A stretch of 64,000 nucleotides of DNA from Eledone cirrhosa. Its lineage: Eukaryota. Below the pieces are notes generated by a model. That model was not told the origin of the DNA. It did no database searches and saw only the letters and a program-made list of their open reading frames with translations. Shown one piece after another: positions 2,346-54,394 of this stretch. How positions within the stretch are numbered: the first letter of the stretch is position 1; each line of letters begins with the position of its first letter. Both the position numbers and the translations under genes were made by a program. The stretch spans positions 149,482,001-149,546,000 of the forward strand of contig OZ024743.1 in assembly GCA_964016885.1 (NCBI GenBank). Direction: 5' to 3'.

Positions 2346-3236
2346 TGCATATATGTGTGTGTGTGTGTAGACACACACTCACTCTCTTACATACACACAC
2401 ACATACACACATATACATATGTAGATATATATATATATTCAAGGCCACAGACCGCTCAGTTGCACCACATCATGATTTCATTCACTTCCACACTTTACAG
2501 CGTGCACTATGTGTGTTTTAATGTGGCACCATCATTAATGAGATTACTGTTTTTGACATAACTGAAGAGGCTTCTTGACCTCTTCTTTGGTAAGTTTTAT
2601 ACTGTTGGATACCTTTACTAACACCAACTGTGTTATAATGTGTACTAGATGTATTTTCCTTGGCACCATCCCTAGAGACGTTGTCGTTAACTATGCTGTT
2701 GGGGAATGATGACCTGTCTCAAGTGAAATATATTTAAGGGGAGGAAGGGAGAGTAAAATGGATGATAAGTATGATGTCAAAGGCGAGTGACTATAGTTGA
2801 GTGAGAAATAGGGATAAGTATGGTGTTGTAATATATGTAACAAATGTGGTAAGATTTAAGGGATGATGTGAGGGAGAAAAGTGCTGAAAAGTATATCATG
2901 GGGGTATGCTGTGGATTTGTGAGGATGATAAAAGAGAGCGAAGATGTGGTGGTGATCTTGGACAGAATGTCAGGTACAGTGATGATGAGTATAGATGCTA
3001 AAGGAACTATACCTGATGTGGATAGTAGAGTAGGAGTACAGTGATTGTGAGAATAGTTTCTAAGAAGTGATGATGCAGTAAAGAGAAGGACACTAGATAA
3101 GTAGAAAGGGAATATGTCAAGTATGATATTATTAATGTGTGACAAATGTGGTGGAATTTAAGAGCGTGATATGAAAGAAAAAGAAAGAGGATCATGATCC
3201 TGAACAGAATGGTGAGGAGTACATTAATGGTGAGTA

Positions 3237-5483
3237 TCATCATCATCACCGTTTTACGTCCGTTCTTCCACGTTAGCATGAGTTAGATGGGTTGTCATTT
3301 TGTGGGCAGTGTCCGGTCTGCTGACCATGTCTTGCTCATACGGAACCTATTTTGGCTTGATTTCTACAGCTGGATGCCCTTCGTAGCACCAACCTCATTT
3401 ACTGTGAGTGTTGGGTGCCTTTTTCCATGGCGCCTGCACTTCCACTTTACAGTGTGGGCTGAGTGCTTTTTTTGCCATGCCACATCCACGACCACTTAGT
3501 AGTGGGGTGGAGAGCATATTGTCTATATGCTTCAGCTTCAGCTTGTACCTGTGGGAAGTCGGGTCTTCTGTATTACTGCGTGACGCCAGAGGTCACGGTC
3601 CTGTGTCATCGCCTTTGAGAGGTGCAATTGGGAAAGGCCGGCTTTTATCACCTCATCCCAGATCTTCTTGGGTCTCCCCATCCCACGGTTCCATCGACTT
3701 CTAGTGCTCTGCACATTTTTATGCAACTGTCATCCTTCAGACGCATCACATTTCCATACCAACGCAACCTCCTCTCCTGCACAGAGCATTTGATTCCTCT
3801 GATGCCCAGTCTCTCTCTCAATTCATTTATGCTTTGCCGTTCGCGTATATTGCAATTACACATCCTTCGGAACATGCAAGCTTCATTTCTTTCTAATCTG
3901 CACAAGTCTTCTACGCACAGCGCCCAGGTCTCACTACCATGTAGCATTGCTGTTCGTATGCACGCATCATACTGTTTGCCTTTCATTTTGAAGGAAATGC
4001 CTTTTGCAGCTAGCAGTGGCAGTAGCTCTCTGAACTTCTTCCACCCCGTTCTTACCCTGGTTTCTGTACTTTCCAAACACCCACCTCCACTATTAATTCG
4101 GTCACCTAGGTAGCAAAAGCTGTCTACTGTTTCTACAGAGCCCTCCAAGAGTTTTGTGGTGCTTGTTTCCTGTGACCGTTTGTTGCTTGCTGTCCTGGCG
4201 CAACTGCTACATGTAAAGCCTACATTCTTAGCTAAGCTTCCTGAGATCCCACTACATCTCTTGTGTACCCATTGTTTGCATTTGGGGCAGGGGATGGAGT
4301 TCCTACCTACACCTTTAGTACATACTGAGCAAGGCCATTTCCCTGAGGGGATCTGGGTTCTGTTTTCTTGTCTACTTACGAGAACCTTAGTCTTTATTAG
4401 GTTGACTTTGAGACCCTTTCTTTCTAGTCCCTGCTTCCATGTTTGGAATTTCTTCTCTAGTTCCACCATAGATTCAGCTATAAGTGTGAGATCATCCGCA
4501 TATAGGAGTTCCCATGGGCATCCGTCATAAACACCTCTGTTATTGCCTGCAATACTATAATGAACAGAAGAGGGCTAAGGACAGAGGCCTGGTGGATACC
4601 GACCTGTATGCTAAATTCTTCGTTATAGCCCTTGCTAACCCTAACTTTGCTGACTGCTCCTCTATACATTGCTTGTACAGCTTTCACAAGCCATTTATCT
4701 ACTCCTAGTTTTCTAAGAGCCCACCAGATTATAGCACGGGGCACTCCAGATCGACAAATGACAGGTAGAGTGGATTACTTTTAACTAGGTACTTTTCCTG
4801 TAACTGCTTCACAAGAAAGAGGGCATCAGTGGTGCCTTTTCCTGGCACAAACCCAAGTTGCATCTCATCTAGTTTTACCCAGTCCCTAATCAACTGGGCT
4901 ATAACTCATTCCGTTATTTTCATGACCTGGTCCATCAGCTTTATACCTCTATAGTTTCCACTATCTAGTGCATCACCTGCTGCTGTACTAATCCTTTGGT
5001 ATAACACCCTCTAGTATTACCTGGTTAACAATACGTGTGGTTATGGTGTGACCTACCGACCCAGATGCTTTCAGCATCTTGGCAGCTATACCTGATGGAC
5101 CGGTTGCCTTCCCAGTCTTCTTATCTTTAATTGCCTTACTTACTACACTGCTGCTGACTTACACTGCTGGCCCTTCTATAGGGTCCATTTGGGGTGGAGT
5201 CTCTTTCTCCCATGCATTCTCCTCATTTAGTAATCTTTCATATTGGGTTGTCGCACTGATTTTTGCCTACAAGAACTCTCCATCTAGTCTCTTGCACACA
5301 GTATACATTAATTTCCTTTCGCTCTAGCATCTCTTCGATTTCTCCTGCTCTTCCTTTCATTGTGCTTACATTGATGGTTCCAACTCGGAGTTTTGGGAGA
5401 GGGTGAATTTTTGCGGGGGAGTGCGTATGCTACCTGTCGCTGAATTAAAGCTTCACATGGGTGCTTGGTAACTCACGGATTCC
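3237..5483 (-). mobile_element. RTE LINE, internally deleted and frameshifted
   Basis: (CAT)n tail at ~3237. RT pieces in ORFs 3648-4469 and 4478-4744 (LSPLLFIIVLQ, ERRLRWYG). The EN N-terminus LRVGTINVSTMKGRAGEIEEMLERKEINVYCVQETRW reads at ~5280-5390. Confidence 0.9.
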
Positions 5484-6322: not shown

Positions 6323-7360
6323 TCTCACACAAGAGATGTAGTGGGATCTCAGGAAGTTTAACTAAGAATGTAGGCTTCATATGTAGCAGCTGCGCCGGGT
6401 CAGCAAGTAGCAAACGACCACAGGAAACAAGTACCACCAAACTCTGGGAGGGCTCTGTAGAAACAGTAGACAGCTTCTGCTACCTAGGTGACCGAATTAG
6501 CAGTGGAGGTGGGCGCACGGAAAATACAATAACTAGGGTAAGAACAGGATGGAAGAAGTTCAGGGAGCTACTGCCGCTGCTAGCTGCAAAAGGCTTTTCC
6601 CTCAATATGAAAGGCAGCTGTATGATGCATGTATACGAACAGCAATGTTACTGGACGCTGTCTGTAGAAGACTTGCGCAGATTAGAAAGAAACGAAGCTT
6701 GCATGCTCCGATGGATGTGTAATAGTAACATACGCGAACGGCTAAGTATAAACAAATTGAGAGAGAGACTGAGCATCAGAGGAATCAAATGCTGTGGGCA
6801 GGAGAGGAGGTTACATTGGTATGGACATGTGATGCGTATGAAGGATGACAGCTGCATAAAAAGGTGCAGGACACTAGAAGTCAATGAAAGCCGCGGGGTG
6901 GGGAGACCCAAGAAGACCTGGGATGAGGTGATAAAGGCCGACCTTACCCAATTGCACCTCTCAAGAGTAATGACACACGACCATTACCTCTGGCGTCACG
7001 CAGTAACACAGAAGACCCGGCCGTCCCACAGGAACAAGCCGAAGCTGAAGCATATAGACAATATGCCCCCACATCCTCCCACTGCAAAGTGGTCATGGAG
7101 GCGCCACGACAAAAAAGCACCCAGCCCACACTGTAAAGTGGACGTGTAGGCGCCACGGAAAAAAAGCACCCAGCACTCACTGTAAATGAGGTTGGTGTTA
7201 GGAAGGGCATCAAGCTCTAGAGATCAAGCCAGAATCAGTTCCTGTATGAGCCAGACAAGGTCAGCCGACTGGACACTTCTCACAACAGGACAACTCGTCT
7301 AACCCATGCTAGCATGGAAGAACAGGCGTAAAACGATGATGATGATGATGATGATGATAT
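6323..7360 (+). mobile_element. 5'-truncated RTE LINE
   Basis: ORF 6256-7149 carries HKRCSGISG..VDSFCYLGD..RVRTGWKKFRELLPLL..RRLHWYGHVMRM, followed by the 3' UTR and a (GAT)n tail. Confidence 0.92.
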
Positions 7361-10272: not shown

Positions 10273-10827
10273 TAATATTCGATTTGTTTGCAACAAGCAA
10301 ACAGCCTCATAACACCATGTGTGTGACCATGTCATCCTTTTGTTCCAGTGTTAGCAGAGAGAAAACAGTCGACAATTGCTTCAGAGTTGTTGCTCCTTAT
10401 CGAAACTGTGTATTCTCATCCCATGTTAGAGTGAAATCAAATTTTGTTTTTATAGAAGTTATTGTGTTGATATGACTGACTAAATCGCTTTAAGGTCATG
10501 CCGAGTATGCCTGCAATCTAGTGGCTAGAACTAGTATAATGACTCTTAGAAGCTAGTTTTGTACCCTTCCTTAAAAATTCCTATGAGACACTCAGATGAA
10601 TTATTAGAGAAAAAAACAAAACTAGTCCTCGTTGAGATATGTAATAGCCGTAATACCTGACACTGTCTGAGGTTATGATGACGAGGTCATTGAAGAAATT
10701 CTTGTGAAAGAATAATAGCAATTCTGCATGAATATATTATTTGAAACGCAATACAAATGTTCAGTGTGGATGAGGGTGGGTTTGGGTAGTGTGTGCAGTT
10801 TTCTGTGTGTGCACTATATATATATAT

Positions 10828-11745
10828 ATCATCATCACCATTTAACGTCCATTTTTCCATGCTACCATGGGTTAGACTGGTTGTCCTATTGTGAACAATG
10901 TCATATCAGGTGACCATATCTTGCTCATACAGAAATGATTTTGGTCTGGTTTTTACAGCTTGTTGCCCTTCCTAAGACCAACCACATTTACAGAGAGTAC
11001 TGGGTGATTTTTGTTGTGACACTTACACAACCGCTTTACTATGTGGGCTGGGTGCTTTTTGTTGTGACACCTACACACCAACTTTACAGTGTGGACAGCA
11101 TGCTTTTTGCCGTGTCACCATCACGACCATTTTACAGTGTGGGTTGGAGGCTTCACTAGATGCATGCTTCAGCCTGTCCTCATGTGTGATGTATTGGATT
11201 GGAGAGAGGAGTGGGTTGGAGGAGGGGTGGTGCGCACTATATATATGCTTCAGCTTCAGCCTGTGCCCTTGGGAAGGCAGGTGTTCAGTATTATTGCATA
11301 ACGTCAGAGATCTCAGTCCTGTGTCATCTTCTTTGAGAGGTGCAATTGAGCCAGGTCAGCTTCTATCACCTCATGCCTACTCTTCCTGGGTCTCCCCACT
11401 CCAAGGCTTCCATCAACTTTGAGTGCTCTGCACCTTTTTATACAGCTGTCATCCTTCATGTGCATCACATCTCCATTCCAATGCAATCTACTCTCCTGCA
11501 CACTGCACCTGATTCCTCTCAGTTCGTCATGCTTTGCCATTCACAATTATTACTATTTCACATCCATCGGAGCATGCAAGTTTTGTTTCTTTCCAATCTA
11601 GGCAACTCTTCTAGACACATCACCCAGGTCTCACTACCATGCAACATTGCTGTTTGTATGCACATATCATACAGTCTGCCTTTCATTTTGAGGGAAAAGC
11701 ATTTTGTAACTGGAAGTGGTAGTAGCTCCCTGAACTTCTTCCATC
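10828..11745 (-). mobile_element. 5'-truncated RTE LINE, older copy
   Basis: GIRCSVQESRLHWNGDVMHMKDDSCIKRC..GRPRK; (CAT)n tail at ~10829. Confidence 0.88.
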
Positions 11746-13765: not shown

Positions 13766-14207
13766 AGGCACATGGCTTAGTGGTTAGAGCATTGGCCTTG
13801 CAATCGAAAGGTTGTGAGTTCAATTCTCAGACCAGGTGACGTGTTGTTTCCTTGAGCAAGACACTTTATTTCACAGTGCTCCAGTTAACTCAGCTGTAGA
13901 AATGAGATGATAGGACTGGGTTCCCTATCATTCCACTGCAAAGTGGTCGTGGAGGTGCCACAGCAAAAAAACACCCAGCCCACACTGTAAAGTGGACATG
14001 TAGGTGCCACGGAAAAAAAGCACCCAGCACTCACTGTAGATGAGGTTGGTGTTAGGAAGGGCATCCAGCTGTAGAAATCAAGCCAGAATCAGTTCCTGTA
14101 TGAGCAAGACATGGTCAGCCAACCGGGCACTGCCCACAACAGGACAACCCATCTAACCCATGCCAGCATGGAAGAATGGATGTAAAACGGTGATGATGAT
14201 GATGATG
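13766..14207 (+). mobile_element. Family A tRNA-derived SINE with long RTE-derived tail
   Basis: A box TGGCTTAGTGG and B box GAGTTCAATTC; central CCTTGAGCAAGACACTT..CTCAGCTGTAGAAATG; the tail matches the RTE 3' UTR at 7080-7360. Confidence 0.9.
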
Positions 14208-23271: not shown

Positions 23272-23490
23272 ATGAGTGTCACAATAAAAAGCAGCCACCC
23301 CCACACAGTAAAGTGGTTGTGTAGGTGTCGCGACAAAAAATACCCATCCCACACTTAAATGTGGTTGGTGTTAGAAACAGTTCTATATGTGCAAGACAAA
23401 GTCTCCCAACCCAACTTGCCTCTAATGGGACAACCTGTCTAACCCATGCAAGCGTGAAAAATGAACGTTAAACGATGATGATGATGATAT
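23272..23490 (+). mobile_element. RTE 3' UTR fragment
   Basis: AACCCATGCAAGCGTGAAAAATGAACGTTAAACGATGATGATG tail. Confidence 0.8.
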
Positions 23491-24949
23491 AGAGAGAGAA
23501 AGGGTATGGGCAAGCCATGTTTCATTAGCTAGCAGATGAATACTTGTCCCCAATCAACCATCTGTGACTCAGTGTTGAGGTTGAACATGCTAGTATGACA
23601 ACATATATGAACAGCCAATTTGTACAATTATTACATATAATATTACTAAACACCACCTTTACCATATACTATTACATTTAGTACAATACTGATTCCTCTG
23701 AAATCAAAATATATCACTTTAGCTATTATAGTCATTGGTTGTCTTGGCTGATATATCAGTTGTCAGCTCGAAACAAAATATTCATGCACACACACACACA
23801 TAAGCACACATGCATGCACACATACTAATATATATATAATATATACATATATGGGTATGCATACATGTATTTATATTTATTTGTGTGTATGTATGTCTGT
23901 CTATCTGTCTGTATGTATATGTATAGATATATGTAGATATTTATATATAAATATGTATATATATGTATATATGCATGTTCATATATACATATAAATGTGT
24001 GTATATATATCTATATATATATATACATATACACATGCATAATTATATATATATATATAGGTTTCTCTAGCATGTATGTATATTTTAATATGTTACTACC
24101 CACACATGTTACATGCAAACTCACACACACATAGATAGATAGATACAATCTTATTAGCTAAGTGATGTAACTTAACACTCATCTTACACTCTAAGCCTTT
24201 AACATTTTCACAGTAACACACAACAATGTTCATTTTCCTAATTGCCATGTATGCTGCAGATACTTTGATCCAACCATATTCCTATTCCTTCGGCTGGATC
24301 ATCATGTCAGAGAATCCCCTGTCTCCCAGTAATTTTGCAAAACGTTTATTGTAACACTTCTTGGAATCCTACATATTTCTTCCATTTTTCTTTTTATCTT
24401 TTATTACCACCCACCTAACCAACTACCGCCATGATTCCTGAATGCAAGACTGCCTGTCCACCTGCATCACAATACATGGAAGTTCACATTTTTCCCCCAT
24501 GGCATCCCACTTTGTTCTCTACTTACAGTCTGTTTAGTTATTATTTAAAAATGTTCACACTTCTCACCTTCTCTGACTCTTGTCTTATATTGTAGATCTG
24601 TCTTCGTTATGACTTCTAAATTCAGTAGATATACGAAAGCTGTAGAAAGGCTTATGTGATGTTTATGTTATTCCTGAACTTGTTAGATATATAAAAGAAG
24701 GAACAAAGACAAAGAAAATAAGACTGAAATAATAAGTGAACAGTAACATCTGAGTTAAGACCACTGAGGAAATATTGCTAAATATAGACATGCACACAAG
24801 CACACGTATACATATATGTGTATGTACATACACATATATATATATGTGTATGTACATAATATATAATATAAGTGTGTGTATGTGTATGTAAATAAGGGAC
24901 AGCTTTTCTTTCAAACATGTTCTATCAAAAATATTATTAATACAAGTAT

Positions 24950-26200: not shown

Positions 26201-26383
26201 TATAGACTGGCACCACTATCCACCAACACACTAATACACAACACAAACACATACACACACAAGCAAATATGCAGACGAAATTTATAACACACACCGTACA
26301 CAGGCCCAGTACACAAGCTTGGACATACACCCACTCAATGACAATACACATAGACACCCACACATACACACATATATATAAAT

Positions 26384-26433
<50 letters not shown>

Positions 26434-26834
26434 TCATCATCATCATCATCATCATCAACGTTTAACGTCCGTGTTCCACGCTTGCATGGGTTTGGACGGG
26501 GGTAGTCCCACTTGAGGCAAGAGTGATTGTCTTGCTCGCATAGGACTGTCTGGCAGGTTTTCTACAGTTGGATGCCCTTCCTAACACCAACCACATTTAC
26601 AGTGTGGGTCTGGGAGGTTTTTACCGTGTTGCCTACATGGCCACATTACAGCGTGGACTGTGTGTTTTTTTGTCGTGACACCTACACGATCTCATTTGTT
26701 TCGGCCTGGATGGCGCGGCACCAACATAACTTTACATAGAACGGGGTGGTGTGGATGGGGTGGGGGTGGTGGTGGTGGGACGGGGTGTATTTTGTTAGAG
26801 ATGCCTACTGGCTGGAGTAGGTTTTACTATATAT

Positions 26835-29558
26835 TTAGGTAAGGCGGGTCTTCTCTGTTACTGAGTACCGCCAAAGGTCTCGGTCCAGTGACATTGTCTT
26901 GGAGAGGTGTAAGTGTGTGATGTCGGAGTTTATCAGCTCGTCCCAGGTTTTTCTAGGTCTGCCTATTCCGTGACTACCGTCTATCTTTATTGCCCTGCAC
27001 TTTGTTATACAGCTATCGACTTTCATGCGCATCACGTGTCCATACCAACGTAGCCTTCTCTCGAGTAAACAACATCTGATCCCTCTTATCTCTAATTTTT
27101 TCCTTAGTTCGTTTCTGCTTTGCCGTTCACGTATATTACTGTTACACATCCAGCGGAGCATGCAAGCTTCATTCCTCTCTAGTCTGCGTATATCCTCTGC
27201 ACACAATGCCCAGGTCTCACTGCCATGCAACATTGATGTTCGTATGCAGGCATCGTACAACCTGCCTTTCATTTTTAGGGAGAACCCTTTAGCAGCTAAT
27301 AGTGGTATAAGCTCTCTGAACTTTTTCCAACCAGTTCTGACTCTAGCTACAGTACTTTCAGAGCACCCTCCCCCACTGCTGATTTTATCGCCCAGGTAAC
27401 GGAAGCTGTCCACTATTTCTATAGAACCTTCTGCGCAATTGAAAGAGCTAGTATTTTGTGGGCACTTGCTGCTACTTATTGCACCAGAACACTGGCCACA
27501 TGTAAAATCTATGTTCTTAGTTAGCTTACCTGTGATCCCACTACATCTTTTATGCACCCATACTTTGCATTTAGGACATAAAATGGAGTTTCTACCTACG
27601 CCTTTCCTACACACCGAGCACGACCATTTCCCAGAAGGGACCGCCGCCTTGTTTTCTTTCCTACAAACTAGAACTTTGGTCTTAGCCAGGTTAATTTTAA
27701 GTCCTTTTGGCTCTAGGCCGTGCTTCCATGTTTGGAATTTCTTCTCTAGCTCGGCCATTGATTCCGCTATGAGTGTCAGGTCGTCTGCGTATAGGAGTTC
27801 CCATGGGCAGCCTGTCTTGAACTCCTCTGTTATAGCCTGAAGGGCAATAATAAATAGTAGGGGACTGAGAACAGAGCCCTGATGGACGCCAACTTTTACG
27901 CTAAACTCTTCACTATATTCGTTGTTAATTCTAACCTTGCTGACTGTTTCTTTATACATGGCTTGTATAGCCCTCACAAGCCATTCGTCAACGCCTAGTT
28001 TTCTAAGAGCCCACCAGATAATGGAGCGGGGGACTCTGTCGAAGGCTTTCTCCAAGTCGACAAAAGCTAAGTAGAGGGGTTTACCTTTAGCTAGGTACTT
28101 CTCCTGTAGTTGTCGTACTATGAAAAGAGCGTCTGTGGTACTTTTGCCTGACACAAACCCGAACTGCATTTCATCTAGGTCAATTCTCTCTCTGATTAGT
28201 TGCGCTATTACTTTTTCCGTGACCTTCATGACCTGGTCGATTAATTTAATGCCTCTATAGTTACTCCTATCTAGGGCGTCTCCTTTACCCTTATAACAGT
28301 TAACGATGATGCTGCTATGCCAGTCCTTCGGAACAACCCCATTCTGTACGACTTGGTTAACTATGCGGGTGACCATGGTGTGTCCCACCGTGCCAGATGC
28401 CTTCAGCATCTCAGCAACTATTTCCGAAGGCCCAGCCGCCTTACCCGTCTTCATATCCTTGATTGCCTTACTTATTATACTCCCCTCGACTAACACTGCT
28501 GGTCCCTCTATTGGGTCGATATGGGGGAGACTGTCTTTCTCCCATTTATTCTCCTCATTTAGTAGCCTTTCATAGTGACACTTCCAAGCTACCTTCTTAT
28601 CAGTGTCGGTGATGGCAAGTATGCCATCATCGTTAAGTACACACTTCTCCCCGACAATATCACGGTTTTCCTTGACGCATTGCCTAGCAATCCTGAACAC
28701 CTCACGTTTTTGGTCATCGCGTTGTAGAACATGCTTGAACTTTCTTTGCTCAGCTTCCCTTCTTGCTAAGTACACTTCTCTCCTAGCTTCCCTCCTGGCC
28801 ACTTGATAGTCTACTCTACTTCCCCCATCCCGCCATACTTTCCAAGCCTGCTTTTTGGCCTTAATTGACCCCTCCACCTTACTGTTCCACCACCATGTTA
28901 CTCTCCTCCTGCCTACAGGCCTGCTCCAGCCACAGACTTCATCTGTCGCCAACAGCAGGTTTGCTTTCAGAAATTCCCACTGTCCCTCTATATTGTCCGA
29001 CTCTAAATGTTCTTCCTTACTGTCGAAAGCATCAAGTAATATGCTTTGAAATTTATTTCTGGCTGTGGGGTCCTTTAGCTTCCATATTTTTCTCCTGAGG
29101 ATAGTCCTCTTCTGCTCTCGAGTACGTCTCGTCCTGACTATGAGGTCGCTAATTATCAGTCTATGTTGGGAGGTGCATTCTTCATGGGGGAGGGATTTAG
29201 TGTTTACAACAGACACTCTGTCACGTCTTCTGGTAAGGATATAATCTACCTGGCTTGTGTGTTCCCCGGATCTATAGGTGATCAGGTGATTATCACGTTT
29301 TTTGAAGTTAGTGTTACAGATAGTTAGGTTATTTGCATCACAGAATTCCAGGATTCTGGAGCCTTCCTCATTTCTAGTACCAAACCCATAGCCTCCATGG
29401 ATTTCGTTGTAGCCGTCACAATGTTGTCCAACGTGACCATTTAGGTCGCCTGCAATAATTATATAGTCACTGTCAGATATTTGGGAGGTAGTTAGCAACA
29501 GTGTCTCATAGAATCTGTCTTTTATAGTGCCGGGCAGTCCGGATTTGGGTGCGTACGC
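26835..29558 (-). CDS. RTE ORF 3' part: APE endonuclease C-half, RT, PHD-like Cys cluster
   Basis: Open for ~907 codons: AYAP, GDLNGH, VDYIL, SQHRL, NYRGIKL, QFGF, FVDLEKAFD, GVHQGSVLSP, YADD, FRYLG. Confidence 0.93.
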   Translation of the reverse strand, partial: AYAPKSGLPGTIKDRFYETLLLTTSQISDSDYIIIAGDLNGHVGQHCDGYNEIHGGYGFGTRNEEGSRILEFCDANNLTICNTNFKKRDNHLITYRSGEHTSQVDYILTRRRDRVSVVNTKSLPHEECTSQHRLIISDLIVRTRRTREQKRTILRRKIWKLKDPTARNKFQSILLDAFDSKEEHLESDNIEGQWEFLKANLLLATDEVCGWSRPVGRRRVTWWWNSKVEGSIKAKKQAWKVWRDGGSRVDYQVARREARREVYLARREAEQRKFKHVLQRDDQKREVFRIARQCVKENRDIVGEKCVLNDDGILAITDTDKKVAWKCHYERLLNEENKWEKDSLPHIDPIEGPAVLVEGSIISKAIKDMKTGKAAGPSEIVAEMLKASGTVGHTMVTRIVNQVVQNGVVPKDWHSSIIVNCYKGKGDALDRSNYRGIKLIDQVMKVTEKVIAQLIRERIDLDEMQFGFVSGKSTTDALFIVRQLQEKYLAKGKPLYLAFVDLEKAFDRVPRSIIWWALRKLGVDEWLVRAIQAMYKETVSKVRINNEYSEEFSVKVGVHQGSVLSPLLFIIALQAITEEFKTGCPWELLYADDLTLIAESMAELEKKFQTWKHGLEPKGLKINLAKTKVLVCRKENKAAVPSGKWSCSVCRKGVGRNSILCPKCKVWVHKRCSGITGKLTKNIDFTCGQCSGAISSSKCPQNTSSFNCAEGSIEIVDSFRYLGDKISSGGGCSESTVARVRTGWKKFRELIPLLAAKGFSLKMKGRLYDACIRTSMLHGSETWALCAEDIRRLERNEACMLRWMCNSNIRERQSRNELRKKLEIRGIRCCLLERRLRWYGHVMRMKVDSCITKCRAIKIDGSHGIGRPRKTWDELINSDITHLHLSKTMSLDRDLWRYSVTEKTRLT

Positions 29559-30356
29559 CGTATTCTCAAACAAAAAACAAAATCCTTCCCATTCTACTTC
29601 TTATAAATTCCTTTAAATATATATATTATGCTACTTCGAAAATCAAAAATCCCGCTTCTACACCCTTCACCCTCCATCTACTCCACGAGGGGCTGCGGTC
29701 AGCCACTCTCTCTCTCCCCCTTCTCCTCTCTCTCTCTCTTCCCCTTCCCCTCTCTCTCTCTCTTCCCCTTCCCCTCTCTCTCTCTCTCTCTTAGCTACAC
29801 ATATATATATATATATATATATATAAGATAAATTCACCTTCATGTTTATTCACTTTTCGCCAATCCATTGCTGCTTCAATTATTCCTACTACGGTGTACC
29901 CATGTAATCGTAACGTACACATTTTTCTATCTACTCCATGCTCCAATTTCGTACATAGTCCAAACATCCAATCTCACAAAATCCGAAATCTGTATTTTTT
30001 GTTATTTATTTAGGTTTAAATACGGTTGTTTTTGTCGTATTGAACAGAACAAATCTTGCAGTTTTGCTTTTTGTTAATCGCTTGTTAAACATTCATAACC
30101 TTCCAGCTAGCTACCCCACACCTCTCCCACCCGCCCCCACACACCACCATTCTTAATACGTGGACCAATCATAAGCCAGAGCCCCCCCCCCCCCCCACGC
30201 ATCACCATTATTATTATTACGCGGACCAATCATAAGCCAGAGGCCTATACTATCGCTTGCCCGGTTGCCTTCGATATATGATGGATGGATGGATGGACGG
30301 ACTGCGGAATCCTGGAGAGTGGAAGGGAGAGAAAAATCTGGACGCTCAGAGCGAAA

Positions 30357-30873
30357 ATGCCAAAGTTAAAGTCAAATTCACCTCGTGGACGAGAATGCGA
30401 GCACTCCTCTTTGTTTCGTCCGCGGATGGCTAACATAACCCCATCTCCCCCCGCCCCCCACCGCCCCCACCCTCCAAACGCAATCCAAAACTTCAGAGTT
30501 GGTACCATAAATGTAGGCACCCTAAAGGGTCGCGCTAACGAGGTTGTAGAAATGCTTGAACGTAAGGAGGTCGATGTTTGTTGTATTCAAGAGACCAGGT
30601 GGAGGGGTGGGTCTGCTAGATTCATTGAGGGTAAAAAACGATGTTATAAGCTTTTCTGGGTGGGAAACGACGATGGGCTGGGTGGAGTAGGAATCATGGT
30701 AGCAGAAAAGTGGGCAGATAAGATAATAGACGTAAATAGAGTGAACGACAGAATAATTAAAATACGACTTGTCCTCAATAGAACTACGGTGACAGTAATA
30801 TCTGCGTACGCACCCCAATCCGGACTGCCCGGCACTATAAAAGACAGATTCTATGAGACACTGTTGCTAACTA
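30357..30873 (+). CDS. RTE ORF 5' part: APE endonuclease N-half (inverted)
   Basis: RVGTINVGTL..DVCCIQETRW..GGVGI..DRII..SAYAPQSG..FYETLLLT; the start codon is uncertain. Confidence 0.88.
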
Positions 30874-30949
30874 TATATATATATATATATAAGAGAGTGT
30901 TTAAGTTTGCTTGAAGTATTGTGGAATATAAAAAATGGTTGTTTTGGAA

Positions 30950-31417
30950 GTGTTTTGGAAGCCTCTACAATGCAGAGGAGTAAATCTCCAGGTAACAATC
31001 AGGTGGCAGTAGGAAGAAAGAAAAGATATGTAGAAAGAAATGTAAAGAAATGTAGAAAGGCATAAAAAGAAAACTAGAGATTGAATTAGCTTGTAAGAGA
31101 TATATTAGTCCCTATATTTTGGATTTCAGATCCATCGACGAGGGGGTTATCAGAAGGGAAATATGTATGTCAGCAAAGGGAACAATGTGTGGCTGTCTTT
31201 ATCTGTTGTTTGCATCTGACTGATTGTGTCCAATAGAGAATGGTCTCTGCCGCATAATAAATCTCTTCCAAGCTAACTCCATCTATGGTTTTCATTTTAT
31301 GCCTTTTTTACGTCTCTTTTTACATTTCTTTCTACATTTCTCTTCCTTCTTCCTACAGTCACCTGATTTTGTTACTTGGACATTTACTCATCTCCATTGT
31401 AGAGGCTTCCAAAATGA
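30950..31417. repeat. Diverged inverted repeat, ~155-bp arms
   Basis: 30950-31105 (TTTTGGAAGCCTCTACAATG...) pairs with 31258-31417 (...CATTGTAGAGGCTTCCAAAA). Confidence 0.8.
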
Positions 31418-31421
31418 CCAT

Positions 31422-32198
31422 ATCATCATCACCGTTTTACGTTCGTTCTTCCACGTTAACATGAGTTAGACGGGCTGTCCTGTTGTGAGCAGTAGCCGGT
31501 TGGCTGACCATGCCTTGTTCATACAGGAACTGATTCTGGCTTGATTTCTACAGCTGGATGCCCTTCCTAACACCAACCTCATTTACAGTGAGTGCTGGGT
31601 GCTTTTTTCCGTGGGGCCTACACGTCCACTTTACAGTGTGGGTTGGGTGCTTTTTTGCCGTGGCACCTCCACGACCACTTTGCAGTGAGAGGGTGTGGGG
31701 GCATATTGTCTATATGCTTCAGCTTCAGCTTGTACCTGTGGGAAGTCGGGTCTTGTGTATTACTGCGTGACACCAGAGGTCACGGTCGTGTGTCATTGCC
31801 TTTGAGAGGTGTAATTGGATAAGGTCGGCTTTTATCACCTCATCCCAGGTCTTCTTGGGTCTCCCCACTCCACGGTTTCCATTGACTTCTAGTGCTCTGC
31901 ACCTTTTTATGCAGCTGTCATCCTTCATACACATCACATGTCCATACCAACGCAGCCTGCCCACAGCATTTGATTCCTCTTATGCTCAGTCTCTCTCTCA
32001 ATTCGTTTATGCTTTGCCGTTCACGTATACACATCCATCGGAGCATGCAGGCTTCGTTTCTTTCTAATCTACGTAGATCTTCCACCTTCAGCGCCCAGGT
32101 CTCACTACCATGTAATATTGCTGTTCGTATACATGCATCATACAGCCTGCCTTTCATTTTGAGGGAAAAGCCTTTTGCAGCTAGCAGTGGCAGTAGCC
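31422..32198 (-). mobile_element. 5'-truncated RTE LINE
   Basis: LLPLLAAKGFSLKMKGRLYDAC..RLRWYGHVM..GRPKKTW; (CAT)n tail. Confidence 0.92.
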
Positions 32199-36960: not shown

Positions 36961-37944
36961 AAGATGATATATACATTCACAGATATATCTATGTATACAT
37001 AAATATATAAATTTACGGATATATCTATGTATATATGAATATATATATATGTTTATGTGTATACATATTTACATGTATATATATATATAAAGAGAGAATA
37101 AGAGATGCACATACATGTGTGATTCTAGTGCTCTGATATTGAACTGAAATACAAAGACGTTACAATATCATTAATAAAAATTTATGAAAAGCTTTGAAAT
37201 TTTGCAGCCATTAAGAAATCAGCGGAAGAGATAGCTAATTACAATTATAATGTCCCAGCATGTATCTGTTTATTAACATCAGAGAAACATACACTTAATT
37301 AACTTCATGTGCCCTAAAAAGACCTATTCTACCACATTCAATGGAAAAGATTAATGAAAGGACAATCCTCAATATTGTGTTCTTTCAAAATAGTTTGTAT
37401 TTCTACATTTTTTTTTCAATTCCATAAAAGTTATCTCTCTTATGAGTTTCATTAATTTATATACACATCATACATTTACAGAATAAAAAAGAGGAATTTA
37501 GAAGGAAAGCATAACGTGTTCTGTCTCTAACACAAACATCTTGTTTGTGTTTTATTGAAGTAAATATCAGTCAATAGTTACAACAATAATTCTAGTAATA
37601 ATATTAACAGCCACAACAAAATCTGTTTGTAGCAAAATATTTCTGTTTCTTTAGAAAAATTAAAACAAAAACAGCATTTTAAAAAAGATTTTATTTTAAA
37701 AAATCAGTATGAATTGTTTGTAACATTGTCAGAAATTCATGGAAAGGAGTTAAAGCATTCCATGAACCCCAGTACTTGATTGGTAGTTTATTTTATTGAA
37801 ACTGTAATAATAAAGAGCGGGAGATTTTAATATAAAAGACTGGAACTAATGCTAAAAAAAATTCTAACAATTCTATCAGTTCATCAACCTAATTCTAGTA
37901 ACAATATAAACAGCAATAACAACAACATATAAAAAAATACTTAT

Positions 37945-38380
37945 GTCATCATCATCACCATTTAATGTCTATGGTTCCATGCTGGAATGGGTTAGAGATG
38001 TTATCCTTTTGTGAGCAATGCCAGATCAGGTGACCATGTCTTACTCATACAGAACCTATTTTGGCTTGGTTTCTACAGCTGGATGCCCTTCCTAGCACCA
38101 ACCTAATTTACAGTGTGAACTGGGTACTTTTTGTTGTGACATCTGCGCGACCACTTTACAGTGTGGACTGGCCGTTTTTGTTGCATTGACATCACGACCA
38201 CTTTACAGGAGGATTCACTGAACGTATTCTTCCACTTGTCCTCATGGGAAATGTATGGAAGTGGGTGGGGTAAAGTGGTGCATATTATGTATATGCTTCA
38301 GTCTTGGCCTGTTCCCATGGTAAGTCTGGTCTTATGTAACACCAGAGATCTCATTCTTGTCATCACCTTATGTAAATGTT
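37945..38380 (-). mobile_element. RTE 3' end fragment
   Basis: (CAT)n tail and 3' UTR homologous to the other RTE copies. Confidence 0.8.
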
Positions 38381-49613: not shown

Positions 49614-52600
49614 CTACAGGCTTATAGAGAGAGAAGGCCCAACCACTTGGGCCATCTTTGCCACATTCACCCACCTTTTATAAAATTTGCTGGGGTACAG
49701 CACCTCTCTCTCCATCCTGATTCTTCTTCCAAAATGATATTTGAAAAAAAGAATCAGTTGTTCGCCGGAGAGAAAGGTATCTGACCTCAGCCCTTTTAAC
49801 CTCGTCCACCATATAACCTCTTTCACCATGGCCATAACACATAGGAAAACCGCCTCTCCCTCGTTTTTGAAAGAGGGTGGTGGTTTGATCATGACAATGG
49901 ACTCGGTTGTTAACTGGATTGGTCCCACCCGCGACAATAGTCGTTCTACATAGCCCCACAGGTCGGTAACGCCCGGGCAGTGTATAAATGCGTGCGCGAC
50001 GGTTTTCTCGTCTCGCACGCATCTCGGACAGATCTTTTTAGAAGGGTCCCTTCCCGGGCGCCCGTGTCTGTAGAGCTTGTCTCGAACTGGTAGAGCTCCT
50101 CGGTAGCACTGCCAGGCCGGGGATTTTTAGAAGTTGTCCTTGGTCCCGGGCGGAAGGTCCTACCGAACAGAATGGCCAGTTCGTCCTCCTCTACGCCCAG
50201 AGTTTCTCCGAGCGCGTCGTCGCACTTGCTGCGGACCAACCCTCTATAGAATGACGAAGTGGAGTCTCCACTGATCGCCGGATCCGCTTACCAGAGGACT
50301 GTGAGCGCCTGAACACATTCGATGTGCCAGTCGCCCATTTTCCTCGGTCTTTGCTTAACCCAGGACTGCAGCTCGGTCAGCGAGACGAGTCGTGGGAAGG
50401 CTCGCCTCACGAACGGGGCCCACACCGGTTGTCTGGTGAGGAATACGTATAGATGCCGCAACCTGAGTGCGTGTTTGCGCATCTTCAGCCACGGCATCCC
50501 CAGCCCTCCATTGGAAGGGTGTTGGCAACAGATGGATCTTCTCACCAAAGGAGCCCGCCTCTTCCAAAGGAATTGGAAGAGCGCGCGCTCCATTTTGGTG
50601 AGCGATTTGGCTGGACAAGGCACGACGGTCAAGCGGTAGTAGATGACGGACGCTATAAAAGTGTTCGCCACCTCCGCTCGACCTTTCAAGGATAGTTTGC
50701 ACTCGGCCCGCTTCTGGGTGAGTGCAAACACCTTGGCAGTCACCTTGTTCCAGTTCTTCTCCACCTGGAGGTCCGGACCAAACCAGACCCCGAGCAGCTT
50801 TACCGGTCCTTCCGTCCAGCGTCCGACGACGCCATCGGAAGGCATCGGTTTGCCTCTCCACGATCCGAGTTGCAAACTGATGGACTTGTCCCGGTTCAGC
50901 TTCACTCCTGTGAACCTTTCGTTTTCCTGCAGTAAGGTGCCGATTTCCTCGATTTGCGAGGCGCTCGACACCATTACTGCCATGTCGTCGGCGTAGGCCA
51001 ACGCCGCTTTCCGCAGTCCCGGTTCCAGAGGGATGCTCTGCAATAGCTCCAACTTCCGCAGTCGTGGCTCGAGAGTCAGTACGTACAGAAGGGAGGAGAG
51101 AGGGCATCCCTGTCGAATGAATCGCGTGATATGGAACGGCTACGAGAGGAAGCCGTTCACCTTGACCCTTGAGCAGATGTTGCTGTAGTGCATTGCAGCA
51201 ATCCAGCCACTGAACACGGGTCCGAAGCCTGCCGCCTCGAGCACCGCATCCACGTAACGATGGTCAACCCTATCGAAAGCCTTACACTGATCCAAGTTGA
51301 TCAGGGCCCCACCAAAGCGGGGTTTACACCCTACCCTCTCTATGATGTATCGCATGAGGTGGAGGTTGTAGTGTATGGACCTGGTCGGGATTGCGCATGT
51401 CTGCGCTTCTCCCTCCAAGTTTTCGACGACAAGCGCCAGCCCCTTTGCCAATAACTTGGCCAAAATCTGTAACTCTGTGTTTAGCAGAGTTATGGGCCGG
51501 AAGTTTCCTATGTCATCCCCCTTATTCTCGTCCTTCCTGACTAGTGAGACTACGGCCATGGTCACAGAACTGGGAATTCTCCCGTTCTGCTGCTAGTTGT
51601 AGTAGACCGCTTCCAGGAGACCGGAGAACAAGTCCGGCATTGCTACGTAAAATTCGTAGGGTAGACCGTCGAGACCTGGAGATTTGCGTTTGCTGCATTG
51701 GCTCAGCGCGTCCCCTATCTCAGCGGCTGAAATCGGCTTTTAGCAGAACTTCGCCTCGCTGTCCGAGAGTCGCGGTAGGCCGTCGAGGTATGGACCAAAA
51801 TCCATAGCCCCTGCCGGCGCGTCGCCCCGCCCGAACAGTTGAGCAAAGTGCCGCTGAAAGGCCGCACACATCTGCTTCGGCTCACGTATCACGCGTCCGT
51901 TTTGGTCTTTCAAAGACCGAATTGTGGAATTGTTGCCACTTTTTGCCTCCGTCACTCGGGCCCAGCTAACAGCTTTGACTCCCTCGTTTCCCAGAGCACC
52001 TATTTTGCTTCTGACAACGCAGCCTTCGTGCTTTGCGTCGAAGAACTGGTCCAAGGTCGTTCTCGTGGCTAGCACGCTGGCTACGTTTCCACTCCTAAGT
52101 GCCTCTTCTACTTTATCTACCAGTTCCTTTTCGGTCTTATTTCTATCTAACGCTAATTCTTTACTAAAACCTATCGAGTCTAATCTAATTGCCCTCTTGA
52201 GAGAGTACCACCATCTGTTGTTGACAATGGCCCCCGTCAAGTGCTGCTTAACTAAAGTGCTAACCCGTCTACTGTAGGCTTTGCATGTTGGTAACAACAG
52301 GTCCGGATTCCAGTAGCCGGGTCCTTATCTATGGATTTTGTCAAGGTTGACTAAGCAGGTCACTAATTTGTGATCTGAATAGGCAATCATGAACATTTGT
52401 GGACAGCTTAACATGTCCCTATCCTTCTTTCTAACTAGAACCCTATCTAGGTACGATCTAGATGTTCCGCTACGATTAGTCCACGTCCACAGTGGCACAG
52501 TCGGAAAATCTAGTCGATATCTATCGGCCAGGTCAAATCGGCCGATTAACTGTTTGAGGCTGTTACACCCCCCTTTATCGGGACATGCTCCCACATAGTC

Positions 52601-53050
52601 CCAACGTGCACCTAGGATTCCATTCCAGTCCCCCACTAAAAGCAAGGAGCGGGACGTTCCCAGAAAAGTTTCTAGACGTTTGAAGAAGTCTGACCGCGGT
52701 GTCCTGGATGGGGCATATGCGGCCACCAGCCTGAAGGCTCTACCTTCACTACCATCAGCGTCTAGGACCACCAGTCGACCCTCCGGGTTCAGATGTATCG
52801 TCTGTGTTACGAGGTCCAGGTGTTTCAGCAGCAAAACGGCAACCCCGCCGCCACCTCCCGGCTGACAGAGAGATGCGTAGATCTCAAAGTCATCGAAGAT
52901 GGGGGCCAGCTGTCGCTCGCTGTGGATCCTGGACTCGCAAATCGCTACTACATCCATACAGTGCGACCTGAGGTCGTTTAAGAGTTTGCCCTGTTTCCAG
53001 GGCATCCCCAGGCCGCGTACGTTCACACATCCAACTCTTATATTGGCCAT
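49614..53050 (-). pseudogene. Tx1 ORF2 (APE-RT-zinc knuckle) broken by frameshifts and stops
   Basis: ORF pieces 52325-53050, 51740-52297, 51140-51565, 50288-51052 and 49614-50018 lie in domain order. Confidence 0.9.
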
Positions 53051-54394
53051 GTTGGTGCTGAAAAGTTAAAAGAGGAAAAGAGATCACTCACCCTTCGTCT
53101 CCTGGGGACCAGGCCGCACGAGTTTCATGGGGGTGTTGGAGGGGTTGTCTGGATGGGTGGTGGTTTCCGGCGGGGTGGGGACGGAGATGTTTGGTGGGGT
53201 GGGGTCTGGTGGGGTGGGGAGACATTTGAGAAGGACGCGGTTGAGTGGTTTCACGCAGGAATTCCCCACATCCTTCTCAAATGTTTCTTTTAGGGACCTA
53301 TAAGTTTGTATAGGGACCCTAATCAGTTTTAGGTTCAGTTTTTTGCTATTTTTAATAGAGTGGGCGAAAGTTTTCCCTTCGGTTTTCACCGAAGGTTCGT
53401 TCGTGATGGTCTCCATTAGTGTTTTGTTTTCAGTGTTTATGTAAGTGTAAGTGTAATTTTCTTGTGTTGTTTGTTTTTGTCTGTAGTTCTTGTGTGTGCT
53501 TTCGTTTTGTTGTAGGTATTTTGTTTTCAGGGGGTGGGGGTTTTGTTTGTGATGTTTTTGTTGTTTGTGTTGGTGGTTGTATGTTTGTGGTAGTGTAGGA
53601 GTACACGTTGTGGGATCATAGCTATTCGCTCTGGGCTCATTTGCACCAGAACTTCAATGCTAGTCCCATTGAATACATCTCTGGTGGACTTTCCTACTGA
53701 CAGTATTCTGTCTTCATCAAAATTGATGAAGCCGCACAGTATCCACCATATGTTCACCTTTGGTGTGACACTCGTGATTTTGATCTTTTGTGTCCTTTTT
53801 CCCATGTTTGTGGGGAAGAAGGTGTACAGGTTGGATAGAATTGGCGACACAGAGTAATGTTGGGCCGTCAATTGATCCTTCATGAGTACCGAAATACTCC
53901 CAAAAAGTTTGCTTCTTTGAATGAATCCAATATCATTCATTGAATTTTTGAAAACCAGTTCAATTTCTTTCTGTGACAATTGGACTGGTTTTCGGGTAGA
54001 ATTGGAAACTGTCCTAAAAACTATCGTTTTGAGAGCAGTTTCCTTGCGAATTTCTACCGGAGAATTGATGCTGAAAGCAGCATTTTTTTCGAAAGTGACA
54101 TATCTCCTAGCGTCCTTTAAAAGTTGTTCAGCATTTGTTATGTCGAGATATATCAGTTCCTCCTTTTTTTTTAACTGTCTCTGCAAAGGAGATTTTTGGT
54201 TTCTTTGTGGAATTATCCGTGTTGGTGATGTTGTCATTATTGTTGTTATTGTTGTTGTTATTCTTGTTGTCACCGATGTTGATATTATTCGTATTTTCCT
54301 TGGTGTTGTTGTTGTCTTTGATGCTGGTGTTATTGGTGTTGTCTTTATTTTTTTCTTTGTTGTTGTTATCATTGTTGTTTTTATCATCATTATT

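What the first reader, a model, noticed from the sequence alone, without database searches (positions are those of the whole stretch)
26431..30873. Intact RTE LINE ORF split across strands with twin-priming geometry
Seen: the 3' part (26431-29558, minus) and 5' part (to 30873, plus) share 70 bp (29489-29558 versus 30804-30873, one mismatch, AYAP[K/Q]SG..ETLLLT). On the element strand the order is (TA)n, inverted 5' segment, body restarting 70 nt upstream, (GAT)n tail, (TA)n. The outer junction has TA microhomology, and the inner one sits at the palindrome GCGTACGC. Rejoined, the ORF is about 1,050 codons with no stops. Known: twin-priming inversions are described mainly for mammalian L1. Inference: an RTE uses the same route in a TA-microsatellite target, and the family was recently active.
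Basis: partly seen in the sequence, partly recalled or inferred. Interest (0 to 1): 0.78.

Follow-up and report, generated by a model that had tools for sequence, protein, structure and literature searches.

The report
Front-flipped RTE LINE in TA repeat
A young copy of a very abundant RTE-type jumping gene sits in a TA repeat with its first 1.3 kb backwards and 70 bases doubled, likely the "twin priming" copying accident known from human L1; only one or two of 180 sampled sister copies show such a flip, so it is a modest curiosity.

Summary
A young RTE-clade LINE (13,222 exact copies of a 3'-end word) lies at 26430-30873. Its body is on the minus strand, its 5' 1,315 bp on the plus strand, and 70 bp occur in both. 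The flipped piece is all element: 19 of 19 other loci carry it collinear with the body, it is cut inside the 5' UTR, and it abuts the host (TA)n. This matches the L1 class '5' deletion + 5' inversion + internal duplication', so twin priming is the best explanation (0.7). Not shown: the target duplication (hidden in (TA)n), the empty allele, and read support (no contig or read bridged the inner junction; inconclusive). The route is rare here: 1 clear and 1 doubtful case in 180 position-ordered copies, against 31% for L1. (TA)n is the family's usual target (90 of 180). The palindrome has no shown role. The copy is likely dead. My searches found no RTE case in print; this scan noted two in other genomes. 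New member of a known kind; interest 0.33.

The parts
26372..26430 (.). Host (TA)n microsatellite after the tail; likely holds one copy of the target duplication, which cannot be delimited
   Evidence: TRF period 2, 30 copies; sequence
26430..26457 (-). (GAT)n 3' tail, about 9 units
   Evidence: TRF ATC x9.3; the family's commonest tail is 7 units, 55 of 180
26458..26834 (-). 3' UTR of the element
   Evidence: between stop codon and tail; a 32-nt word from it occurs 13,222 times exactly
26835..29558 (-). Non-inverted body: 3' part of the single ORF, 907 codons plus stop (second half of the AP endonuclease, RT, PHD finger, C-terminal blocks)
   Evidence: blocks shared with named RTE proteins (compared by eye)
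27666..28268 (-). Reverse transcriptase core (RVT_1)
   Evidence: Pfam PF00078, E 9.6e-32, residues 431-631
27489..27620 (-). PHD-type zinc finger after the RT
   Evidence: Pfam PF00628, 25.4 bits against cut-off 24, residues 647-690; also on many homologues
29489..29558 (-). Inner copy of the 70-bp duplication (start of the body); carries a near-private base at 29546 (Q to K)
29551..29566 (.). Inner inversion junction between 29558 and 29559; 8-nt palindrome on the body side; no microhomology at the exact join
29559..30873 (+). Inverted 5' segment, 1,315 bp, all element sequence, cut at its 5' end inside the family's 5' UTR
   Evidence: collinear with the body in 19 of 19 other loci; family continues upstream
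29559..30284 (+). 5' UTR part; 29559-30108 corresponds to most of a ~635-bp unit that is tandemly repeated in some copies
30285..30873 (+). 5' part of the ORF (first half of the AP endonuclease); first ATGs at 30285 and 30357
   Evidence: Pfam PF03372, E 2.8e-06
30804..30873 (+). Outer copy of the 70-bp duplication; its last 2 nt (TA) are shared with the host repeat
30872..30891 (.). Host (TA)10 next to the inverted segment; predicted source of the second primer
   Evidence: TRF; no element 5' remnant beyond it

Best explanation
This is a likely dead copy of a young RTE-clade LINE whose 5' 1.3 kb is inverted, likely because both cut ends of a (TA)n target primed reverse transcription of one RNA during insertion (twin priming). 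Shown: the order (TA)n, inverted 5' piece, body restarting 70 nt upstream, (GAT)n tail, (TA)n, with no host DNA inside. Inferred steps: the endonuclease nicked the (TA)n repeat; the first end paired with the AU of the (GAU)n tail and primed the body cDNA; the second end, also (TA)n, paired by 2 nt inside the endonuclease coding region and primed a second cDNA that ran 1,315 nt and stopped inside the 5' UTR; the first cDNA ran 70 nt past the internal priming site; the two cDNA ends were joined without microhomology by host repair. The one mismatch is likely a later substitution. In this family the route is a rare side reaction.
For: Flipped piece is element 5' end in 19 of 19 other loci. It stops inside the element: 22 of 23 other occurrences of the junction word are preceded by the family's upstream motif or a one-letter variant of it, 1 by AT-rich DNA. 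Its other end abuts the host repeat, with no un-flipped 5' stub beyond it. The start of the inverted piece and the start of the body lie 70 nt apart in a 4.4-kb element. Both 70-bp copies share a minority base at overlap position 61, and about 12 of 63 other rows have that whole haplotype (the two rows from the window itself taken out), which fits one template. Both halves are closest to the same young copies (L068: 0.35% and 0.84%). Near-private changes run at 0.32% in the body (10 of 3,097), which gives a 34% chance of one difference between two 70-nt copies. The class exists for L1: 17% of 5'-inverted somatic L1 carry an internal duplication, and the tail-primed part is on average 2.6 times the inverted part (bioRxiv 10.1101/2024.08.27.596794, passages); here 3,128/1,315 = 2.4. 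Two more family copies have the same order of parts: L030 (clear, short, 92%) and L061 (no 3' end found). Apparent target duplications of 13 nt or more flank 25 of 180 copies against 19 of 600 mismatched pairs (a weak control), in the range that PMC4245944 links to inversion (passages).
Against: No contig of three runs of one sample, and no read of two RAD runs, bridged the inner junction; the left flank is held by those three runs at 0.92-0.98 of its words, and the one contig with the body's variant base continues as a normal copy, which a second genomic copy with that base (L142) explains. This is inconclusive: contigs are filtered and 2 of the 3 runs lack even that contig. The target duplication cannot be seen in (TA)n and no empty-site paralog exists in the assembly. 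The outer microhomology is only 2 nt, available at 14% of positions; the inner join has none. 70 nt is longer than the L1 medians of 22 bp and 12 bp (PMC12016303, passages). Only 1 clear and 1 doubtful inversion in 180 position-ordered copies, 0 clear in the 125 of 1 kb or more, so the family gives little independent support.
Confidence: 0.7

Rival explanations
1. Insertion-coupled but not classical twin priming: the 5' piece came from a second RNA or cDNA of the family, or a loose cDNA fragment was captured backwards by end joining while the insertion was being closed.
For: No microhomology at the inner join; only 2 nt at the outer join; long overlap; thousands of near-identical templates exist; the 5' ORF part has 0 near-private changes in 573 sites against 10 in 3,097 in the body (expected 1.9, not significant).
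Against: A second template need not start within 70 nt of where the body ends; both copies share the minority haplotype held by about one fifth of other rows.
Confidence: 0.12
2. A normal copy inserted first and its 5' part was inverted later, by a staggered break or a replication template switch, which also leaves an inverted duplication at one breakpoint.
For: Staggered-break inversions give the same local geometry (own knowledge). (TA)n is fragile (own knowledge). Rearranged and nested copies are common in the sample (L047, L061, L130, L200).
Against: The inverted piece holds no host DNA and leaves no 5' stub outside, so both outer cuts would have to fall exactly on the 5' edge of the insertion, and the copy is young (about 0.3% private change).
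Confidence: 0.1
3. Assembly error: a repeat-bounded piece was placed backwards.
For: No bridging contig or read; very high-copy repeat next to microsatellites.
Against: No gap or N in the window; the two 70-bp copies differ by a base that occurs, in this 32-nt context, only twice in the genome, whereas a duplicated overlap would be identical; both junctions are base-precise and fall where the insertion model puts them; the negative read result is uninformative.
Confidence: 0.08

Closest known systems
5'-inverted (twin-primed) mammalian L1 insertions, class '5' deletion + 5' inversion + internal duplication' (model of Ostertag and Kazazian 2001, not held, seen only as cited; class in bioRxiv 10.1101/2024.08.27.596794; counts in PMC2912911 and PMC12016303)
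   Same: Order of parts, truncated inverted piece, overlap at the inner junction, 2-nt match at the outer junction, body about 2.4 times the inverted piece.
   Different: RTE clade with one ORF and no ORF1; (GAT)n tail and (TA)n target in place of poly(A) and TTTT/AA; overlap 70 nt against medians of 12-22; rate about 1% against 18-31%.
RTE-clade LINEs with a PHD finger after the RT (Branchiostoma-a02 and Nematostella-a01 in the supplements of Tay et al. 2010, PMC2887409)
   Same: Same blocks by eye across RT, finger and C terminus; single APE-RT ORF; microsatellite tail.
   Different: 3' UTR of about 380 nt and a long 5' UTR with tandem ~635-bp units; no inversion is mentioned in that paper's main text (0 hits for 'inversion' or 'inverted').
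Octopus RTE elements reported as possibly active (RTE-2_OV and an O. bimaculoides RTE, PMC9115989)
   Same: Single ORF of similar size (1,109 aa there), zinc finger, ~600-nt UTR, insertion polymorphism reported there.
   Different: Identity to this family was not tested; that the host is an octopus is my guess from genome size and repeats, not a result. The paper has 0 hits for 'inversion' or 'twin priming'.
The single 5'-inverted Nimb-2_DR insert in chicken DT40 cells (Yamaguchi et al. 2014, PMC4245944)
   Same: A non-L1 LINE that rarely makes a 5' inversion.
   Different: Other clade, cell-culture insert, one event among more than 200 inserts of three LINEs.

Membership tests
RTE-clade non-LTR retrotransposon | One ORF with AP endonuclease then reverse transcriptase, no ORF1 | tested here: met
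   Pfam hits; 11 of 40 long copies have a stop-free frame of 1,050 codons or more; no plus-strand frame over 88 aa within 29559-30280
RTE-clade non-LTR retrotransposon | Protein closest to named RTE members | tested here: met
   Six motifs searched in the supplements of PMC2887409; five were found, and the passages shown for Branchiostoma-a02 and Nematostella-a01 match block for block by eye. L1 ORF2 and R2 score alike and low, E 1e-22 to 1e-23. No tree was built; none of the 120 homologues listed carries a clade name.
RTE-clade non-LTR retrotransposon | 3' tail of short tandem repeats, not poly(A) | tested here: met
   (GAT)n, at least 2 units in 180 of 180 copies; tail type per PMC2887409 and PMC6007223 (passages)
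RTE-clade non-LTR retrotransposon | Short UTRs | tested here: not met
   5' UTR over 700 nt with tandem units in some copies, 3' UTR about 380 nt; RTE-2_OV also has ~600-nt UTRs, so this does not exclude membership
Twin-primed 5'-inverted insertion | Inverted piece is element 5' sequence only, followed by a non-inverted body with tail | tested here: met
Twin-primed 5'-inverted insertion | Internal priming site lies near the start of the body (small deletion or duplication) | tested here: met
   70-nt overlap; longer than L1 medians
Twin-primed 5'-inverted insertion | Microhomology between host end and RNA at the outer junction | tested here: inconclusive
   2 nt, inside the 2-5 bp range of about 70% of inverted L1, but available at 14% of positions
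Twin-primed 5'-inverted insertion | Microhomology at the inner junction (common, not obligatory) | tested here: not met
   0 nt at the exact join; PMC2912911 reports joins without it
Twin-primed 5'-inverted insertion | Target-site duplication around the whole insert | tested here: inconclusive
   (TA)n on both sides, up to about 20 nt possible, not delimitable
Twin-primed 5'-inverted insertion | Empty allele joins the two flanks; no collinear intermediate exists | not testable with these tools
   no paralog of either flank above 87%; no relative genome is held; reads uninformative

The most novel reading that the evidence does not exclude
A recently active RTE LINE with no ORF1 protein can twin-prime, using a (TA)n overhang as internal primer, at about 1% of insertions. 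Twin priming would then be a general property of endonuclease-RT proteins, with the L1 rate of 20-30% needing an extra factor such as ORF1p or a mammalian repair pathway. With over 13,000 young copies, this one genome would hold on the order of a hundred events to test that.
Probability: 0.6. Interest if true: 0.45.

Novelty: new member of a known kind. Interest (0 to 1): 0.33.

Why it matters
Twin priming is described almost only for mammalian L1; in one assay all inversions but one came from L1 in human cells (PMC4245944). A natural case in an ORF1-less RTE element suggests that neither ORF1, a poly(A) tail nor a mammalian host is required, and the low rate, close to that of Alu and SVA (0-0.8%), points to what makes L1 special. 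The single locus changes no host gene that I could see and adds no new mechanism. In practice such a copy would be annotated as two elements.

Tried and rejected
Host-flank reading of 29559-30300: rejected. Variant base at 29546 as a subfamily marker (two templates): rejected, the only other carrier is a 93% copy of another subfamily. Read support: no bridge, no verdict; the even depth of 2 across the junction in run X5 is two reads ending at 29558 and three starting at 29559, as the count of 8 reads and the loose ends show. Empty site through flank paralogs: none close. A direct genome-wide search for inverted copies could not be run, so there is a sample, not a census. Of 10 rows flagged: L027, L083, L086, L181 are older subfamilies (67-79%) lying head to head; L124 is head to head; L047 (2 rows) is a nested insertion; L132 has its own TA flank, the piece belongs to its neighbour; L179 is a 26-nt match 1.35 kb away in element coordinates, kept as doubtful; L030 is kept as clear. 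A first scan was swamped by (TA)n and redone with masking. One line ('ref after b') and its monomer motif search failed and were replaced. Target-duplication lengths could not be measured cleanly because targets are repeats. The Atlas gave only generic endonuclease clusters. Ostertag and Kazazian 2001 and Ichiyanagi and Okada 2008 are not held; the latter may bear directly on inversions in RTE.
Full report
Observation. The sequence, ORF list, repeat searches and Pfam scan confirm the description. A LINE body runs on the minus strand from 29558 to a (GAT)9 tail at 26430-26457, followed by (TA)n. The 5' part lies on the plus strand, 29559-30873, and ends against (TA)10. The last 70 bp of the 5' part are repeated as the first 70 bp of the body, with one mismatch. 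Each piece is free of stops and the overlap is in frame; their lengths add to 1,056 or 1,080 codons, by start codon.

What the element is. The window lies on contig C4 of a 3.0-Gb animal assembly; octopus is my guess, untested. The protein has an AP endonuclease, an RT and a PHD finger. It is distant from L1 ORF2 and R2 alike. Five of six motifs were found in the supplements of PMC2887409, and the passages of two named RTE proteins (amphioxus, sea anemone) match block for block by eye, finger included. No tree was built. A 32-nt 3' word occurs 13,222 times and a 31-nt RT word 5,211 times, exactly. The closest long copies differ from the body by 0.8-1.2%, and 11 of 40 long copies keep a stop-free frame of 1,050 codons or more. 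The family amplified recently; present activity was not tested.

Is the flipped piece element or host? Element. In 19 of 19 other loci found with 29559-30300, the piece runs on into the body in the normal order (these were the 20 best of 40 scored among 1,483 candidates, the window's own locus left out). The family continues upstream of 29559: 22 of 23 other occurrences of the junction word are preceded by the family motif or a one-letter variant. No 5' remnant lies beyond the (TA)10. So one breakpoint is inside the 5' UTR, and the other is the edge of the insertion.

Junctions. Outer: 2 nt (TA) shared between element and host; TA or AT is present at 14% of element positions, so this is weak. 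Inner: no shared base at the exact join. The palindrome is real, but there are 29 in 4,270 positions and no role is shown. The mismatch at 29546 is near-private: the 32-nt word with it occurs twice in the genome, the other time in a 93% copy. The body carries 10 near-private changes in 3,097 sites; of nine that I classed, seven are non-synonymous. That fits neutral decay since insertion and explains one mismatch (34% chance). Both 70-bp copies share a minority base, and about 12 of 63 other rows have that haplotype, modest support for one template.

Target. (TA)4 or longer follows the tail in 90 of 180 copies and precedes the 5' end in 79 of 180, against 8.8% of 5,000 random 20-nt windows. The TA target is the family's habit. 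It hides the target duplication here.

How common is the flip? I fetched regions around places listed in order along the first 34 Mb of C1 (fetched in 21, 22, 25-27, 48-50; the place at C1:1728 and one cut off in L143 were missed). One search found 214 copies with a 3' end at 90% identity or more and at least 350 bases of upstream flank, 209 after removing duplicates: 180 position-ordered and 29 chosen by their 5' UTR. Ten rows had an antisense match within 60 nt of the 5' end. One is a clear inversion (L030: about 50 nt flipped, body restarting about 5 nt further on, 92% identity), one is doubtful (L179), eight are head-to-head or nested neighbours. That is 1-2 of 180 (95% interval 0.01-4.0%), 0 clear of the 125 copies of 1 kb or more, 0 of the 29. 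L061 shows the same order within its 5' units (about 150 nt missing at the join) but has no 3' end in the 18 kb fetched, so it is outside the count. Limits: one region, clustered and partly duplicated copies, pieces under 18 nt not seen. For L1 the rate is 639 of 2,068 species-specific insertions (PMC2912911) and 18-22% in long-read data (PMC12016303); these sets are not like for like, but the gap is large.

Is it an assembly error? Not settled. Three contig sets of one sample hold the left flank but none bridges the inner junction, nor do reads of two RAD runs. The tool warns that contigs are filtered; two of the three lack even the variant contig that the third has; the sample may also lack a young insertion. 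The window has no gap, and an assembler's overlap would not differ by a private base. Neither flank has a close paralog.

Mechanism. Twin priming predicts this layout: tail-primed body, a second cDNA primed inside the RNA by the other host end, a small gap or overlap, truncation of the second cDNA. The subclass with an internal duplication makes up 283 of 1,703 inverted somatic L1 (bioRxiv 10.1101/2024.08.27.596794). All steps are inferred from one product. I give it 0.7, other insertion-coupled routes 0.12, later inversion 0.10, misassembly 0.08.

Literature. Seen as passages: PMC4245944, PMC6007223, PMC2912911, PMC9115989 (section 8 in 58), PMC4476161, PMC2887409 (supplement hits in 65), PMC13282606, PMC11371274, PMC13174262, the bioRxiv preprint (73; its supplements are closed), PMC12016303; PMC5389967 holds the term only in its references (12). 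[quoted passage not shown] Searches (twin-priming with BovB: 0 papers; with invertebrate: 3 papers, listing only) showed no report of twin priming by an RTE element; the library lacks most subscription journals. One non-L1 inversion is in print, a Nimb-2_DR insert. This scan noted RTE twin-priming twice before in other genomes (unchecked notes, one giving about one in ten long copies); none in this genome or on similar sequence.

Verdict. Known mechanism, new clade and host: new member of a known kind, interest 0.33.

Noticed in passing
L129:1-3083; L071:2200-4600; window 29559-30108: Some copies of this RTE family start with tandem 5' units: five of 635 bp at 99.9% identity in L129, about four of 638 bp at 99% in L071. 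This recalls the promoter monomers of mouse L1 (from memory) and is unexpected for RTE, described as having a short 5' UTR.
   Followed up: partly
L044, L081, L110 and many others, element 3' UTR: A subfamily at about 93-95% identity carries a ~121-bp tandem duplication in the 3' UTR, three units in L039, L044 and L110, and many of its long copies begin at the same place just upstream of the ORF, so it may have a different 5' UTR.
   Followed up: no
L101-L120, L146, L151, L153, L159 (C1 about 7.9-9.6 Mb): A cluster of young copies is inserted into a 19-bp minisatellite rather than (TA)n.
   Followed up: no
L061 (C4:246,850,011-246,852,600): Second long copy with an inverted 5' piece, inside the tandem units; its body stops about 2.1 kb in and is followed by an antisense piece of an older subfamily.
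   Followed up: partly
L047; L200: Family copies inserted into other family copies, antisense in L047 and sense in L200.
   Followed up: partly
window 30953-31414: A fold-back repeat with nested inverted arms of 46-52 nt (87-91%) right of the insertion; a dispersed family, 1,274 candidates in the genome.
   Followed up: partly
window 3235-5245, 6328-7349, 10815-11743, 13947-14203, 23301-23491, 31511-32190, 37927-38179: Older relatives (70-81% identity) of the same RTE lineage, some with a 49-bp tandem unit in the 3' UTR.
   Followed up: no
window about 50300-53065, minus strand: A decayed LINE of another type, GC-rich, with endonuclease-like and RT-like frames; L1/Tx1-like by my reading, untested.
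   Followed up: no
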